From assembly GCF_902652985.1 (NCBI RefSeq), contig NC_047030.1:18600001-18664000 (forward strand): DNA of 64,000 bases, in the 5' to 3' direction. How positions within the stretch are numbered: the stretch's first letter is position 1; the number at the start of each line of letters is the position of its first letter. Shown here one piece after another: positions 44,701 through 50,700 of this stretch. The stretch comes from Pecten maximus (taxonomy: Eukaryota). The position numbers are program-made.

Positions 44701-47700
44701 AAATAATTCTTAGTTTGAAAAGTTGTAATCAATCACTATTCTACACTTTCATGTTAAAATAGTTTAAATAGAAATTTTTGGTATACATTTCAGATTATTT
44801 TACAGCTGGATGAAAATTTAATATACATTACCTCCTTTCTGATTCTCTTCAGGTGTAGAAATACTGCATTTCCTGTTTTTCTGTAGTAACTCTCAACAAA
44901 TCTTTTTCCAAGTCCAATAAATTTGTTCATACAAACATATAAGCCAGTTTCACTTTCCTATAAATCAAAGATGAAATCGACATTGACCTGGTTTTTTTAT
45001 GGTATTTATGGTTAACATAAATGACAGAGTTATGCAGACAAACATTATATTTTGTGCCAGCTCAATCAATATTCTCATATACCAGAATTCAGTCTAAATT
45101 AATGTTGATGAGATATGATTTACAATTCCATACTTACAGGATTGTCAAAGGAAAATGCACACTCATCCTTGAAGACTTTTTCTCCTCCAAATGGGGACTT
45201 GATTCTGGTCAAATGCTGAGACAGTGAACCAAGAGCCATTTTGAATACCTGGAATAATACAAAATAAATATCTACATTCCATGTACATTTATGTATTTGT
45301 AAATACTGTTACATAACTCAAAATATCAGTCTAGATCTACTCATTTATTGACATTCTTCTGTATATTTAAGTGGGGAAATTACATGAAATCTTCTACATT
45401 ATTGTTCTATTGTCAGTGTCATCTCATACAAAACTGTTGTAAACTTAAATGTTTAAAAGAAGAATTACATGTAATCATTTGTTTTGTATGTCCCCACTTC
45501 TCTGACAAAGTCCAGTTAGGGAAAATTCAAAATTTGAAATGTGTGATCGGATGACCATAAATTGATATATTTTAGGATGGTTTTGACAGCATATATACAT
45601 GTATGTACTTTAGAGAGAAATTAAGCTCAGCCCCCATCCCACCAGTTAAAAATTAAACTTTAACATTGGCTTGATCATTAACATTGTCCAATTAACCATC
45701 AAGTATTGGCTAAAATCGTAGTACAAAGATGTGCTAATTAGCTATAAAACAGTTTTGGTGATAATAGCACTTATTTAACAACTTGTATTGAAACACAAAT
45801 GTTGCCATATAGCTGTCACAAAAGTGAAGCCTTTTTGTCCTGCTCTGCAGCTCCATTGAGATAACCAGAAGCCAGACTCTCCTAACATACTACAGGCTAC
45901 AAACATATTAACATACTACAATTAATATGTTCAACACCTGTAATTTTGCTCAATTCAGCTCAGACAACATTGTTGTAATTATATAAGCTAGCTAAAAAAA
46001 TCTTTATTTTTTCTTACAACAGTTGTGAAACAAGTGACATCAACTTATATTAATCCTGCTTGTTGGCCTGGATGGAAGTGTGCAAGGGTTCTTACTAACC
46101 GAGGAAACCAGAATACCCATGGAAAACCCACATGATCTGGTAGGTGACCCGGTCCATACCTTTTCACATCTAATCAGGGAATAGAACCCCGCTGCCTAGG
46201 TGAAAGGTAAGTGTGTTATACTTTGCCACTAACCACTGATCTAGTAGCTTGTGATGATGTATAGTCACCGTTTCCTCTGATGTGATTGATTCCTACCCGT
46301 TACAGGGATCCAAATCATAAAGATTGTTAACAAGCATCCATATACTTGCTCATTATATCATGATATCGATATGGTATATATCCTGATGGTGATCAGTTTC
46401 ACCATTGACTTTGAGGAATGTAACTAAAATTATATAATTACATATTTGCTATTCAAACACTGACCAGGCTTATTCCTGCAGACCCTCTTTATTACACATA
46501 CATAATGTTCAGTGAATATTGCTGAAATAACATGTTACAGGTTGCATAAAAAGGTTGTATAAAAAGTAAACAAAGGGCCATAACTCTTATTAGAATGTGA
46601 TCCAATCTCCCGTGTGTACATAAAAGCGGCAATTGCAATATATATACCTTTCAGTGTTATGTAAAGATTTGGTAAGTTTCGATGAAATGACACTGGGGTG
46701 GGGCAATCGATTCAGTAACACAATTAATACATTGTTATAAAGTAACCTCTTGAATAAAATGGATTAGCAACAATCACTAAATCTACAAGAGTAACTACAC
46801 CACTTTTTCTAGTTATAGAGATACTGTGTGTCCATCCAAAATATCACCAGGAAACTATTGTTTACTGATTCTAGGCCTTAATGTGAACAAAAAATCCACG
46901 GGGAGTTTGTATAAGCTGTAAAGAATGTGACAATCTCTAATGCACAAATAAACCAAAGAGTTCATGTACCTGTCTAAATAGGCAACGTGATCAGGTTAAA
47001 TGAGAATTGTTTGTGTAATCAACCAGATTAAAACGTAATATCGCTCATAAAAGAAGCATGATCATCCTCTTCTCGAAGTTGTTATCCAGAGTCAATTTTA
47101 AGCTTGAAAATATCTGGCATAATTTTCGATGCTGGTAAACATATCACGGATTCAGATTAGCCTATCTAGAATATAGCCAATCAGATAAGCCGTTACTTCA
47201 GCGTCGACAAAATGAAACAGAGACATTGATTGGTTAGAGCGGGAACTTCAAAAAGCTTGAAAACAATTTTTGATCAGAAGAGCATCATGTAAGTATTGTA
47301 CAAGAAATGCGTGTATTGAAAACGAATGCCAATAAGGCTACAAATTGTCTGCTAATGGTGAACATATTATTTTTTGTATCAATATTTTCCTTTCTGATAA
47401 ATTTGGAACTGTAGTCTGTAGCTGTTTATCATTTGCACCGTTGAAGACATATACCGTGAAAGTATACAATCAAACAAGCAGTGGTGTGTCCAAGATGTAT
47501 TTCCTCTGATGTTAACATGTCAATCACACTCATTGCACTAAAATTCCCACACACAAAAATAAAATTGCACAATACAGCCTCGTCCCAATATTAAAGGTGT
47601 TCCCAAAACAAAGGTGACAGCTTTCTCCAAACAACCGATTTGCCCCAAACTAACATAGAGCAGTTCTCCATGCATACCACTATGCCCTTGTTCTGATTAA

Positions 47701-50700
47701 TGTCTGTTTCTAGTGCATTGAATAATTTATTAAGTTTTAGTTTTATAAATCCAAATTTTAAAGATTCTGATGTTTTGAAGACACCTTCTAAAAACATGAA
47801 ATGGGTCGATAACTTATTTGAAGGTTTCTGATCATCATCATCATCATGTCTTATCCACCTTTTAGAAAATATGATTTGGCATGATTTTCTTCAAACTTTT
47901 GAAAAGCCAATAAAATATCATGCATGTTAAATATTGGGATTAGCTATAGTGCACTGTTTAAGAAATTAGCACACATGTAATTATGTGACTAGAAATAGAT
48001 GTCCACAAATTAAATGTACCAGTATATGAAGCATATGTATATATAATACACAATCTTAGTGATCATGATCAGTCTACAATTCATTTTAATGGGTCCTTTT
48101 CAACTGTGCTAAAAAAACTGGATCTTACAATGTTCATTTTTAAATTACAGGAAGTATTTCCAGAAATTCTGCAAGTCCTATCAAAATTCTGTGGTTATAA
48201 GATAACTCGAATGCTAGTCGTTTCGGTAACAAGTCGTTTCGGTAGCAAGTCGTTTCGGGAGTCCCGAAAAGTCTCGGGTCGTTTCGGTACATACGCGAGA
48301 TTTTTTCGGGACTTCGGTAGGTCGTTTCGGTACTAATAAAACAATGCAGATTCTATCATTTTTGTGTTTTCATTGCATTTTTAAGTGACTATAATTGCAT
48401 CAACAATCTATTATTGGTATATAATGCTTACTAGCCACGACTCGGGTTAATGTCCCTTACAACGTTTACTGTAGACTACCACGTGATAACGTTTAATGAT
48501 CTACACAAAAACAGCATAATTCTTGCTAAGTTTTTTTTTTATTAATATCAAACAATCATAATATATCATCCATAACAATAATATCGATAATTAGTATAAC
48601 TCGATATTACAAATCAACAACAAATATACATTGGGCCAACGTCGGCATACGACCGTCGCGTTTGTGCTGTTACCGGATCGGGAAGGATCAGAAACACGAC
48701 CTATACATTATACTTGATCGATTAGGGAAAAAAATACATATATTATATGGATAACTGGAGCATTTTGGATTAAGGTATTTTTGTAATTATAGGAAAATGG
48801 CATGAGAAGAAGGGGAGAGGTAGAGTTAAAACTACAGTTAGGTGACTACTGTATAAGATGAAAAATAATCTAACTCCAGATTTTTCAGATATTCTAGTGC
48901 TCTAACAACAATCTGTTGGTCTAAACACCCTTATGCATTGAGAAATAGAAATAATTTTGTTATTCCTGACTATAGGCTTTCTAATACAAATTAATCTTCT
49001 TTACATTCAACTCTGCCTTACATTTTTTCTTTATATATATTTCTCTATCTTTACGTATTTCTATACATGTATATATTTCTCTAACTTTACGTATTTCTAT
49101 ACATGTATATATTTCTCTAACTTTACGTATTTCTATACATGTATATATTTCTCTAACTTTACGTATTTCTATACATGTATATATTTCTCTAACTTAACGT
49201 ATTCAATTCCATACCTACGTGTATAAACGTAATGATTTAACAAACCTAATACGAAATAAAAAAAAAAAAGTAATGAAATCACCCTGTATAGCCTTTATTT
49301 CTCGGGCATGGGTTGTTACATACCAATTTTGATTTTGATTGTATTGCTTCTGTAATAGAAGTTTGAAAATATCATAAAGGAACGAACCACCAGTGCTGGT
49401 TTAAAGAAAACACTGCGCTTGGGGGTTAAAACAATGCCGTTTGTATTATCGATACATTTGTTGTCATAGGTGTTTATACTGACTGTATATTAATTATGAA
49501 TCGTTTTAAAAACAGATTAATTCATGTTAATTATGTATTAAAAAATTAAGGTGTTTATTCTAATGTTGATTGAAAGTACCGAAACGACTTGCTCATGTCT
49601 CCCGAAACGACCCGGACTTCTACCGAAACGACTTCCGAATGTCCCGAAACAACTTCCGAAAAAGTACCGAAACGACCTGACACCGTTTTCTCCTATCAGT
49701 AGATTTGATCATTGAACCTGCAGTATATCAAAGATAGTCAGATTCATTCTGTGAAGTCAACAATTTGACCTGCCTTTGAAAGTAAATTATGTTGTTAATT
49801 GACAACATAAGCAATATATGGCACAATATTATCAATGCACACAAACATATTTTAGTTTCATTAAGATATATATTATATGATAATATTCATATTCTTACAT
49901 GGAGTGCATGCGTTAATACAAATTTCATATCAAAACCCTATGCAAATAATGTATATATGACAATGGGTGATTTAGTAGGATATTAATTAGTGGACAGTGT
50001 CTCACTATCCACATTAATATAAGATCTTTAGATGTAATTTGAAACACAATTAATACTTTAAAAAAACAACAGAAAATAAACATAACATAACACCTTGACT
50101 GTCAAGATCAAACAATGCCTCCACCAAATTTGGATCATTCCCATTCATAAACTTTAACATGCCCAATGAGTGGTAATAAATAATCAAATTTTTCTGGCCA
50201 TTTTCAATTGTATGTTTTTATATAATTATTTGAATTCTTGGTTTAGTTTGTAAAATAAATTGCAACATATGATAAATGTACATATTATGAATGTACATAT
50301 TATATACATGAAAATAGATTTGAAAAATAACTGAACTTTGAAATGTTATGTTGTTTTCAGAAACCATCATGGGTCTGGCTAATAGTAAAACCGACTTTGG
50401 AGAGGGAGAGATGATAACCCCTCCGCGTACCGGTACTCACAAACGTGTCATGGACCACGAGTTTGATCCCAGGTCACCTTCTGTAGGGATAACAAGGACG
50501 CCGATTATTGTGGAGAAGACTCCAGAGGGTCTTCTTGACCCCAGGTCACCATCTGTAGGAATAGTTAGGACTCCTATTGCCACTATTATGCCAGGTAGGT
50601 CATGTCTCATTTTAATAAACACATTTTCAAAATAGTTATGCAATGCTATGTTTGTTTTATTAATTATACAAAATATTTTCCATAAAAGTCAAAGTAGTAT

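What the first reader, a model, noticed from the sequence alone, without database searches (positions are those of the whole stretch)
45239..50369. USP5 and CDCA3 head-to-head, as in human 12p13: possible deeply conserved bidirectional gene pair
Seen: USP5 (minus) and CDCA3 (plus) diverge, with inferred non-coding first exons within about 300 bp of each other (donors at 46970 and 47288). Established knowledge: human CDCA3 and USP5 are adjacent and head-to-head. Inference: the linkage may date to the bilaterian ancestor and be held together by a shared promoter.
Basis: partly seen in the sequence, partly recalled or inferred. Interest (0 to 1): 0.65.

Follow-up and report, generated by a model that had tools for sequence, protein, structure and literature searches.

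The report
Scallop USP5–CDCA3 divergent gene pair
In this king scallop sequence the genes for the deubiquitinase USP5 and the mitosis protein CDCA3 point away from each other and probably share one short promoter region, as their vertebrate counterparts are said to, which is an ordinary but possibly very old gene arrangement.

Summary
The window is Pecten maximus, not human, and holds no N. The minus-strand gene (stop about 25094, ATG 45239) is a USP5/13-type deubiquitinase. The plus-strand gene (ATG 50369, stop 52361) is NCBI's CDCA3-like protein and is collinear with fish CDCA3. They diverge, and none of the 51 ORFs of 40 aa or more between the ATGs has a Pfam hit.

The non-coding first exons are inferred, not shown. 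The plus donor at 47288 is strong: one of only 2 of 287 GT sites scoring 6/7 or better. It lies 27-41 nt after a CCAAT x2 / E2F-like / CHR cluster of the kind described for the mammalian Tome-1 (CDCA3) promoter. This sits in the only CpG-undepleted block of the gap that is not a transposon (46.9-47.5 kb). The minus donor at 46970 is ordinary: 5/7, tied with 13 others.

Adjacency holds in four scallop species by accession and scaffold proxies. Papers give the same gene order in fish and hominids. No other phylum could be tested properly. In two moths the candidate genes lie on different contigs.

Verdict: a real divergent pair, a likely shared promoter and a plausibly ancient linkage; a new member of a known kind, of modest interest.

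The parts
25094..45248 (-). USP5/USP13-type deubiquitinase gene, coding part. The ATG exon is 45248-45138 (ATG 45239-45237). About 19-20 coding exons, stop at about 25094-25096.
   Evidence: tblastn of the scallop-type USP5 P0041 gave 19 HSPs. Pfam found zf-UBP_var, zf-UBP, UCH and UBA_7/UBA. The Cys box NLGNSCY lies in the 40556-40771 piece and the His box GHYVCH in the 25094-25510 piece. PDB hits rank USP5 above USP13 on two exons.
45249..46969 (-). Inferred USP5 5'-UTR intron (1.7 kb), CpG-depleted.
   Evidence: Acceptor ttattccag|GT at 45249-45250, with 13 of 17 pyrimidines. CpG o/e is 0-0.69 through the stretch. Inference only.
46970..47110 (-). Inferred USP5 non-coding exon 1. The donor is CAG|GTACAT with last exon base 46970. 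The 5' end is unknown.
   Evidence: Donor scores 5/7, one of 14 such sites among 308 minus-strand GT sites. It is the first such donor on the USP5 side of the CpG-undepleted block. Weak.
46901..47500 (.). Candidate shared (bidirectional) promoter region: the only CpG-undepleted block between the two ATGs that is not a transposon.
   Evidence: CpG o/e is 0.66-1.01 in the 200-bp windows starting 46900-47300, against 0-0.3 in most flanking windows. Block 46901-47500. No copy elsewhere in the window, no Rfam hit, no Pfam hit in its ORFs.
47177..47181 (+). CCAAT box (forward).
47229..47233 (-). CCAAT box (reverse, reads ATTGG on the plus strand).
47239..47245 (-). E2F/CDE-like GC element. It reads GCGGGAA on the plus strand and TTCCCGC on the minus strand, which fits the pattern TT[CG]x5.
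   Evidence: Pattern definition from PMC4176359. Site found.
47247..47261 (+). CHR-type elements: inverse canonical TTCAAA (47247-47252) and CTTGAA (47256-47261). The second lies inside the 11-mer AAGCTTGAAAA (47253-47263), which also occurs at 47100-47110.
   Evidence: CHR variants and their position near the TSS from PMC4176359.
47255..47288 (+). Inferred CDCA3 non-coding exon 1. The 5' end is a guess taken from the CHR position. The donor is CAT|GTAAGT after 47288.
   Evidence: Donor scores 6/7, one of 2 of 287 plus-strand GT sites at 6/7 or better. It is the only CHR site in the gap that has 2 or more CCAAT boxes, an E2F pattern, CpG o/e near 1 and a strong donor downstream.
47289..50360 (+). 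Inferred CDCA3 5'-UTR intron (3.07 kb).
   Evidence: Donor. Acceptor gttgttttcag|AAACC at 50359-50360. Inference.
48213..49690 (.). Non-autonomous transposon-like insert in that intron. It has inverted subterminal arrays of GTCGTTTCGGTA and an internal 36-bp x 4.7 tandem repeat (49034-49203).
   Evidence: the repeat finder families D2-D5 and pairs I2-I14. TRF. CpG o/e 1.4-2.8. No Pfam hit.
50361..52361 (+). CDCA3-like coding exons 50361-50594 (ATG 50369), 51145-51324 and 52105-52361 (stop 52359-52361).
   Evidence: Matches NCBI XP_033764377.1 (P0001) at 100% over exons 1 and 3. Splice sites read.

Best explanation
This is the Pecten maximus locus where the single USP5/USP13-type deubiquitinase gene (minus strand) and the CDCA3/Tome-1 orthologue (plus strand) lie head-to-head with nothing recognisable between them.

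Both most likely start in one short CpG-undepleted region at about 46.9-47.5 kb. Each would then splice a short non-coding first exon over a 5'-UTR intron onto its ATG exon: 1.7 kb for USP5, and 3.1 kb for CDCA3, half of which is a transposon insert.

The CDCA3 side carries the layout of a G2/M promoter: two CCAAT boxes (NF-Y type), an E2F/CDE-like GC element and CHR elements (the DREAM/MuvB target), placed just before a strong donor. CDCA3 would therefore be switched on late in the cell cycle, while USP5 uses the same nucleosome-free region in the other direction.

Shown: the gene identities, the orientation, the absence of an intervening coding gene, the motifs, the CpG profile and the splice-site strengths. 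Inferred: both transcription start sites, the two non-coding exons, factor binding, any co-regulation, and that the pairing is inherited from the bilaterian ancestor.
For: Gene identities.
- Pfam domain set on USP5 exons. The named hits among the 120 listed read USP5, ubiquitin hydrolase or a hypothetical/unnamed product. PDB ranks USP5 above USP13.
- CDCA3 exon 1 found 38 proteins at E<=0.01 among 176 candidates. Fourteen are named CDCA3(-like), including 6 of the 8 vertebrate hits; the other two vertebrate hits carry no family name.
- Exon by exon against sturgeon CDCA3: exon 1 E=4e-14, last exon E=0.007, collinear.
- Alignment A1 has invariant M1 G2 K7, two DPRSP..I.RTP motifs, R..PL and the EN of the terminal KEN.

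Promoter.
- CpG o/e near 1 only at 46.9-47.5 kb and in the transposon.
- Donor 47288 is one of 2 of 287 GT sites at 6/7 or better.
- The composite 'E2F pattern within 15 nt of a canonical CHR, plus 2 or more CCAAT within 120 nt' occurs once in the whole window, at 47247. In the 5.1-kb gap only 2.8% of 1000 shuffles give one or more.
- Among 24 CHR-type sites in the gap it is the only one that combines all features.
- The 11-mer AAGCTTGAAAA occurs at 47100 and 47253 (3 in the window, 0.09 expected).
- Papers: the Cdca3/Tome-1 promoter uses a CHR; CHRs sit at or near the TSS; inverse CHRs and CTTGAA work (PMC4176359, passages). TOME-1 is CDE/CHR-regulated and CCAAT-activated (PMC4419714, passages).

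Linkage.
- Mizuhopecten USP5 is OWF39838.1 and CDCA3 is OWF39839.1, on one 1.46-Mb scaffold.
- Ylistrum has XP_060066473.1 and XP_060066475.1 on one 1.06-Mb scaffold.
- In Argopecten both are on the 75.5-Mb contig.
- Fish-mammal synteny includes CDCA3 and USP5 (PMC4470515, passage).
- Hominid order is GNB3, CDCA3, [USP5 left out of that analysis], TPI1 (bioRxiv 10.1101/2023.11.13.566830, passages).
Against: - No transcript evidence of any kind was available.
- CCAAT plus CHR clustering alone is not above chance: 11 clusters in the window against 12.8 +/- 3.8 in 100 shuffles.
- The composite test was devised after seeing the site. In whole-window shuffles 27% give one or more such sites.
- CpG-undepleted blocks cover 34% of the window, so one falling here is not rare in itself.
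- The USP5 donor at 46970 is one of 14 equal candidates.
- Two canonical TTTGAA sites lie 27-50 nt before the CDCA3 ATG (50319, 50337), so a proximal unspliced start is possible. The CDCA3 acceptor has only 10 of 17 pyrimidines.
- XP accession distance is unreliable: the Pecten pair, adjacent here, is 688 numbers apart.
- Moths: Amyelois CDCA3-like is on a 13,808,907-bp contig and USP5 on an 11,358,819-bp contig. In Phthorimaea the contigs are 3,786,732 and 1,660,478 bp.
- The human head-to-head orientation is recalled, not checked.
Confidence: 0.55

Rival explanations
1. The genes are divergent neighbours but have separate promoters kilobases apart. CDCA3 would start just upstream of its ATG exon (about 50.3 kb), or USP5 would start near 45.3-46.7 kb, and the 46.9-47.5 kb block would serve only one of them or neither.
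For: Two canonical TTTGAA CHRs lie at 50319 and 50337, 27-50 nt before the ATG. The CDCA3 acceptor is only moderate, with 10 of 17 pyrimidines. Fourteen minus-strand donors tie at 5/7. Minor CpG bumps occur at 46000-46300 and 46500-46700.
Against: The 50.3-kb sites have no CCAAT within 120 nt, no E2F pattern and a CpG o/e of 0.3-0.78, the top value including coding CpGs. The USP5 ATG exon has a strong acceptor 9 nt upstream. Both flanks of the 46.9-47.5 kb block are CpG-depleted, as expected of transcribed gene body. That last expectation rests on recalled knowledge of mollusc methylation, not on a call.
Confidence: 0.25
2. The pairing is ancestral but is kept passively. Scallop genomes rearrange slowly, and a gap of a few hundred bp is a tiny target for breakpoints. 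No co-regulation or shared element is needed, and the pair is lost freely in faster-evolving lineages.
For: The moth candidates lie on different contigs. USP5 is not known as a cell-cycle gene (recalled), so co-regulation has no obvious rationale. The other neighbours differ from those in vertebrates: here a GLTP-domain gene follows CDCA3, not GNB3.
Against: Irimia et al. 2012 report that conserved ancient pairs are enriched for the 5'-5' orientation and for very short intergenic distance, and read this as regulatory constraint (PMC3514665, passages). The two readings are hard to separate without experiments.
Confidence: 0.3
3. The resemblance to the vertebrate locus is coincidental. Either the scallop gene is only a motif-sharing relative of CDCA3, or the adjacency arose independently.
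For: CDCA3 is short, disordered and has no Pfam family: none of its 3 exon pieces gave a credible hit. Similarity rests on short motifs. The last-exon match to sturgeon CDCA3 is weak, at E=0.007 for a single comparison. No reciprocal search against a whole scallop proteome was possible.
Against: The modules are collinear from N-terminal MG to the C-terminal KEN in molluscs, a shrimp and fishes. Only one Pecten protein appeared, and no vertebrate hit carried another family name. By simple reasoning, independent head-to-head adjacency of two given genes among roughly 20,000 has odds of order 1e-4 or less.
Confidence: 0.07

Closest known systems
Vertebrate CDCA3-USP5 locus (human 12p13 region: GNB3-CDCA3-USP5-TPI1)
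   Same: The same two gene families are immediate neighbours. The order CDCA3 next to USP5 is reported as conserved between fish and mammals (PMC4470515) and is listed for hominids. By recall the human genes are head-to-head with start sites under 1 kb apart.
   Different: The outer neighbours differ. In the scallop a GLTP-domain gene follows CDCA3 and an unidentified ORF cluster follows USP5. The scallop gene is the unduplicated USP5/13 form. Scallop CDCA3 is 220 aa, against 340-437 aa in the fishes aligned. Both scallop genes appear to have 5'-UTR introns.
CDE/CHR plus CCAAT promoters of G2/M genes (Tome-1/Cdca3, cyclin B2, CDK1)
   Same: Two CCAAT boxes lie upstream of a GC element and CHR hexamers, close to the presumed start. 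The vertebrate orthologue's promoter is described as CHR- and CCAAT-dependent.
   Different: The canonical hexamer is in inverse orientation. The GC element is 1 nt from it, not in the usual CDE-4 nt-CHR arrangement. The second element is the rarer CTTGAA. No binding or cell-cycle expression data exist for the scallop.
Ancient 5'-5' microsyntenic pairs with bidirectional promoters (e.g. HSPD1-HSPE1; the CAMPs of Irimia et al. 2012)
   Same: A divergent pair of unrelated genes with a very short presumed inter-TSS distance, found in a protostome and in vertebrates.
   Different: Retention is shown here for only one protostome family plus vertebrates. The pair is not mentioned in the main text of that paper, and its supplementary lists could not be seen.

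Membership tests
USP5/USP13 (isopeptidase T) deubiquitinases | N-terminal variant ZnF-UBP followed by a ZnF-UBP domain | tested here: met
   PF17807 on the first two coding exons (E=2.4e-5 and 8.4e-13) and PF02148 on 42187-42438 (E=2.7e-15). PDB USP5 ZnF E=7e-42.
USP5/USP13 (isopeptidase T) deubiquitinases | UCH (USP) catalytic core with Cys box and His box | tested here: met
   PF00443 on two exon pieces. NLGNSCY lies in the 40556-40771 translation and GHYVCH in the last exon.
USP5/USP13 (isopeptidase T) deubiquitinases | Two UBA domains inserted in the catalytic domain | tested here: met
   UBA_7/UBA on 28225-28446 and 26971-27162. PDB USP5 residues 651-695, E=2e-20.
CDCA3 / Tome-1 | N-terminal MG...SK start and two DPRSP-x-x-I-x-RTP motifs | tested here: met
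   Invariant in all 10 aligned sequences from molluscs, a shrimp and fishes. Exon 1 against sturgeon CDCA3 gives E=4e-14. That these features define the family is my reading of the alignment, not a curated definition.
CDCA3 / Tome-1 | C-terminal RSPL...NSPR stretch and a KEN box near the C-terminus | tested here: met
   R169, P171, L172, E216 and N217 are invariant and K215 nearly so. The last exon aligns collinearly to the sturgeon C-terminus, E=0.007. The role of the KEN box is recalled.
CDCA3 / Tome-1 | Reciprocal best hit with vertebrate CDCA3 across whole proteomes | tested here: inconclusive
   Forward search only. Six of the 8 vertebrate hits are named CDCA3 and none carries another family name, and only one Pecten protein was hit. 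No scallop proteome was available for the reverse search.
Bidirectional (divergent) promoter pair | Head-to-head orientation with no gene between | tested here: met
   ATGs at 45239 (-) and 50369 (+). None of the 51 ORFs of 40 aa or more in the gap has a Pfam hit. No Rfam hit and no tRNA.
Bidirectional (divergent) promoter pair | Transcription start sites less than 1 kb apart | not testable with these tools
   Indirect signs only: the CpG profile, the donors at 46970 and 47288, which are 318 bp apart, and the motifs.
CDE/CHR-CCAAT late cell-cycle promoter | CHR hexamer at or near the TSS with CCAAT boxes upstream | tested here: inconclusive
   The motifs are present and co-located, but the TSS is unknown and the significance is modest (2.8% of gap shuffles, tested after the fact).
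CDE/CHR-CCAAT late cell-cycle promoter | DREAM/MuvB and NF-Y binding; G2/M-peaking expression | not testable with these tools
   No expression or binding data were available.
Conserved ancient microsyntenic pair (bilaterian-wide) | Adjacency of orthologues in several phyla on both sides of the protostome-deuterostome split | tested here: inconclusive
   Four pectinids by proxy and vertebrates from papers. Two moths appear unlinked. No other phylum was examined.

The most novel reading that the evidence does not exclude
USP5-CDCA3 is an unreported bilaterian-age head-to-head pair. On this reading one promoter region of a few hundred bp, with NF-Y, E2F-like and CHR elements, has tied a cell-cycle-regulated APC/C-linked protein to the free-polyubiquitin-recycling deubiquitinase for more than 500 million years, which would imply a functional coupling of the two in mitosis that nobody has looked for.
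Probability: 0.3. Interest if true: 0.5.

Novelty: new member of a known kind. Interest (0 to 1): 0.3.

Why it matters
If the pairing is ancestral and constrained, it adds one more case to the small set of unrelated gene pairs kept head-to-head across bilaterians. It would also suggest that the G2/M promoter layout (CCAAT boxes plus CHR) of CDCA3 predates the protostome-deuterostome split, and it would give a reason to test whether USP5 expression or function is tied to mitotic entry. If it is not, this is simply a correctly annotated scallop locus. Both genes already carry these names in NCBI's annotation.

Tried and rejected
- A third homology search with a more variable USP5 exon (37161-37322), meant to bring up oyster and gastropod USP5 for the linkage proxy, returned only 2 proteins among 3 candidates.
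- Looking up unnamed mollusc-like USP5 and CDCA3-like clusters for named members gave Tegillarca, Ruditapes, Mytilus, Mercenaria, Haliotis and Pinctada USP5, but no CDCA3 partner from the same species. No linkage test beyond Pectinidae was therefore possible.
- XP accession distance was rejected as a general proxy, because the Pecten pair is adjacent here yet 688 numbers apart.
- CCAAT plus CHR co-occurrence alone was rejected as evidence: 11 observed against 12.8 expected.
- The GC-richer block at 46.0-46.3 kb, which looked by eye like a tRNA-derived SINE, gave no tRNA, no Rfam hit and no second copy in the window. It was left unnamed.
- Pfam on ORFs in 1-25 kb and 52.4-58 kb gave only spurious hits on a tandem repeat.
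- Paper searches for the pair found nothing relevant: CDCA3 + USP5 + bidirectional gave 2 irrelevant papers, and CDCA3 + USP5 + synteny gave 1 paper.
- The prokaryote genome collection was not used because it cannot hold this locus.
Every search of the window's genes was done exon by exon. Full-length comparisons used NCBI's own records by id (P0001, P0172) and other database proteins.

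
Full report
**What the window is.** The window has no N and is AT-rich. The first CDCA3 coding exon is 100% identical, over 95% of the query, to NCBI's 'cell division cycle-associated protein 3-like [Pecten maximus]' (P0001 = XP_033764377.1). Each exon was searched on its own. Where a full-length protein was needed I used database records by id (P0001, P0041, P0172).

**The USP5 gene (minus strand).**
- Stop-to-stop ORFs and tblastn with a scallop-type USP5 (P0041) give 19 HSPs from 45251 down to 25097.
- A stretch of about 17 residues (roughly 497-513) found no exon.
- Of 16 exon pieces sent to Pfam, 7 scored above the curated cut-off: zf-UBP_var twice, zf-UBP, UCH twice, and UBA_7/UBA twice. 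One piece scored weakly and 8 gave nothing.
- The Cys box (NLGNSCY) and the His box (GHYVCH) are present.
- The zf-UBP exon found 1,736 proteins at E<=1e-10 among 1,756 candidates. In the 120 listed, the named ones read USP5, ubiquitin hydrolase or a hypothetical/unnamed product.
- Against the PDB, human USP5 scores a little above USP13 on two exons. This fits an unduplicated USP5/13 gene.
- The ATG exon is 45248-45138, with a CCT|GTAAGT donor.

**The CDCA3 gene (plus strand).**
- The three coding exons are 50361-50594, 51145-51324 and 52105-52361. No Pfam family covers them.
- Exon 1 found 38 proteins at E<=0.01 among 176 candidates. Fourteen are named CDCA3(-like). They come from scallops, oysters, a freshwater snail, a beetle and fishes. 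Six of the 8 vertebrate hits carry that name and the other two carry no family name.
- Exon by exon against sturgeon CDCA3 (P0027), exon 1 gives E=4e-14 and the last exon E=0.007, in the same order.
- An alignment of ten database proteins (A1) has these invariant: the N-terminal MG and K7, two DPRSP..I.RTP motifs, an R-PL motif, and the EN of a C-terminal KEN.
- I take the orthology as well supported. It is not proven, because no whole-proteome reciprocal search was possible.

**The gap between the ATGs (45240-50368).**
- None of the 51 ORFs of 40 aa or more has a Pfam hit. There is no Rfam match in 44000-53000 and no tRNA.
- Self-BLAST finds no copy of the gap elsewhere in the window apart from its own internal repeats.
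- A 1.5-kb element at 48213-49690 has inverted subterminal arrays of GTCGTTTCGGTA and an internal 36-bp tandem repeat. It looks like a non-autonomous DNA transposon.

**Where transcription probably starts: splice sites.**
- Both ATG exons have a CAG acceptor 8-9 nt before the ATG. The USP5 acceptor is strong, with 13 of 17 pyrimidines; sites that good occur 1.5 times per kb per strand. The CDCA3 acceptor is moderate, with 10 of 17.
- I scored every GT in the gap against the donor consensus MAG|GTRAGT. On the minus strand, none of 308 does.

**Where transcription probably starts: CpG content.**
- CpG o/e is 0-0.3 through most of the gap and rises to 0.66-1.01 in the 200-bp windows starting at 46900-47300. 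The only other high stretch is the transposon.
- Over the whole window such blocks cover 34% of the sequence, mostly repeats. The signal is therefore suggestive, not rare.
- That CpG depletion marks methylated, transcribed gene body in molluscs is recalled knowledge, not a call.

**Where transcription probably starts: motifs.**
- At 47177 and 47229 there are two CCAAT boxes.
- At 47239-47245 there is GCGGGAA, which fits the E2F pattern TT[CG]x5 on the other strand.
- At 47247 there is an inverse canonical CHR (TTCAAA), and at 47256 a CTTGAA.
- The GTAAGT donor follows after 47288.
- Passages of Müller et al. 2014 (PMC4176359) state four relevant points. The Cdca3/Tome-1 promoter depends on a CHR. 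CHRs lie on or very near the TSS. Inverse CHRs are functional. CTTGAA is functional in CCNA2.
- Passages of PMC4419714 list TOME-1 among CDE/CHR-regulated, CCAAT-activated promoters.

**How far the motif evidence goes.**
- CCAAT plus CHR clusters alone are at chance level: 11 observed against 12.8 +/- 3.8 in 100 shuffles.
- The stricter composite (E2F pattern within 15 nt of a canonical CHR, plus 2 or more CCAAT within 120 nt) occurs once in the window, at 47247.
- It appears in 27% of 300 whole-window shuffles and in 2.8% of 1000 shuffles of the gap. I devised that test after seeing the site.
- Of the 24 CHR-type sites in the gap, 47247/47256 is the only one that combines the CCAAT boxes, the E2F pattern, CpG o/e near 1 and a strong downstream donor.
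- The 11-mer AAGCTTGAAAA occurs at 47100 and 47253, 153 bp apart, and once more at 53603. The expectation is 0.09 per window. I have no tested explanation for it. It could mark both start sites.
- A rival site exists: two canonical TTTGAA at 50319 and 50337, just before the CDCA3 ATG. It has no CCAAT within 120 nt and low CpG.

**Resulting model.**
- CDCA3 would start at about 47.25 kb, with a first exon of some tens of nt ending at 47288 and a 3.07-kb intron half filled by the transposon.
- USP5 would start somewhere in 47.0-47.15 kb, with 46970 as the nearest plausible donor and a 1.72-kb intron.
- I rate the CDCA3 half as likely and the USP5 half as only plausible.

**Depth of the linkage.** No eukaryote genome collection was available, so I used accession and scaffold proxies.
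- In Mizuhopecten yessoensis the GenBank proteins are consecutive (USP5 OWF39838.1, CDCA3 OWF39839.1) on one 1,461,857-bp scaffold.
- In Ylistrum balloti XP_060066473.1 and XP_060066475.1 share a 1,064,594-bp scaffold.
- In Argopecten irradians both lie on the 75,513,862-bp contig.
- In Pecten both lie on the 37,770,382-bp contig, but their XP numbers are 688 apart. XP distance is therefore informative only when it is small.
- All four species are scallops, so this adds little depth.
- For vertebrates, a passage of PMC4470515 says LEPREL2, GNB3, CDCA3 and USP5 are syntenic between mammals and fish.
- A preprint gives the hominid order GNB3, CDCA3, TPI1, with USP5 removed from that analysis.
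- A chicken table lists both genes within one 3.3-Mb interval, which is weak evidence.
- The human head-to-head orientation is my recollection.
- Against universality: in Amyelois transitella and Phthorimaea operculella the CDCA3-like candidate and USP5 are on contigs of different length. The orthology of those insect proteins is doubtful.
- Oysters, gastropods and all other phyla stayed unchecked.

**Is it in print?**
- CDCA3 + USP5 + bidirectional gave 2 irrelevant papers.
- CDCA3 + USP5 + synteny gave only the zebrafish CD4 paper.
- Neither gene occurs in the main text of Irimia et al. 2012 or of Xie et al. 2013 (find only).
- The supplementary pair lists of Irimia et al. may contain the pair, but supplements were closed.
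- The class itself is well described there: ancient 5'-5' pairs with short intergenic distance, read as shared regulation.

**Verdict.** A shared compact promoter is the best reading, at about 0.55-0.6. An ancestral linkage is likely on simple odds if the orthology and the recalled human arrangement hold, but it was not surveyed. This is a new member of a known kind, of modest interest.

Noticed in passing
window 48213-49690: A transposon-like insert of about 1.5 kb in the presumed CDCA3 5'-UTR intron. It has inverted subterminal arrays of GTCGTTTCGGTA, an internal 36-bp x 4.7 tandem repeat (49034-49203), CpG o/e of 1.4-2.8 and no Pfam hit.
   Followed up: partly
window 6457-7614 and 29295-30777: The same 155-bp satellite unit forms two arrays (7.5 and 9.6 copies). 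One lies downstream of USP5 and one inside a USP5 intron. Each is followed by similar flanking sequence, seen as proline/serine/arginine-rich translations at about 7.6 and 30.8 kb. This suggests a composite mobile element that carries a satellite.
   Followed up: no
window 26606-28253, 32579-33309, 35339-36309, 37854-39168, 43278-44005: USP5 introns are packed with tandem arrays with periods of 22/44, 27, 67, 36, 31, 79, 31/38 (G-rich; GC skew +0.52 at 38-40 kb) and 32 bp.
   Followed up: no
window 501-2850, 18752-19408, 20316-21764: Further large tandem arrays lie outside the genes: 61 bp x 38.5, 49 bp x 13.4 and 32 bp x 45.4. The last one gives long open frames with only spurious Pfam hits.
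   Followed up: no
window 57974-59012 (-): A glycolipid-transfer-protein (GLTP) domain gene, Pfam E=7.5e-43, lies tail-to-tail with CDCA3. It is not the vertebrate neighbour GNB3.
   Followed up: partly
window 59432-64000 (+): A non-LTR retrotransposon. A coiled-coil ORF1-like frame is followed by an ORF of 1,171 aa or more with endonuclease and reverse-transcriptase domains, open to the end of the window.
   Followed up: partly
window 13808-14619 (-): Overlapping long ORFs of 138 and 141 aa downstream of USP5 in a CpG-rich stretch (13.5-18.8 kb, o/e up to 1.96). They have no Pfam hit and the gene is unidentified.
   Followed up: partly
window 46000-46300: A GC-richer block in the presumed USP5 5'-UTR intron holds the only perfect donor consensus on the plus strand (AAG|GTAAGT, 46206). 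By eye it has tRNA-like A/B-box strings on the minus strand, but there is no tRNA, no Rfam hit and no second copy in the window.
   Followed up: partly
window 53603-53613: A third exact copy of AAGCTTGAAAA, the 11-mer found twice in the candidate promoter, lies about 1.2 kb past the CDCA3 stop codon. Its meaning is unknown.
   Followed up: partly
window 34497-37161 (-): About 17 residues of USP5 (roughly 497-513 of P0041) found no tblastn match. A small exon probably lies unmapped in this 2.7-kb interval.
   Followed up: no
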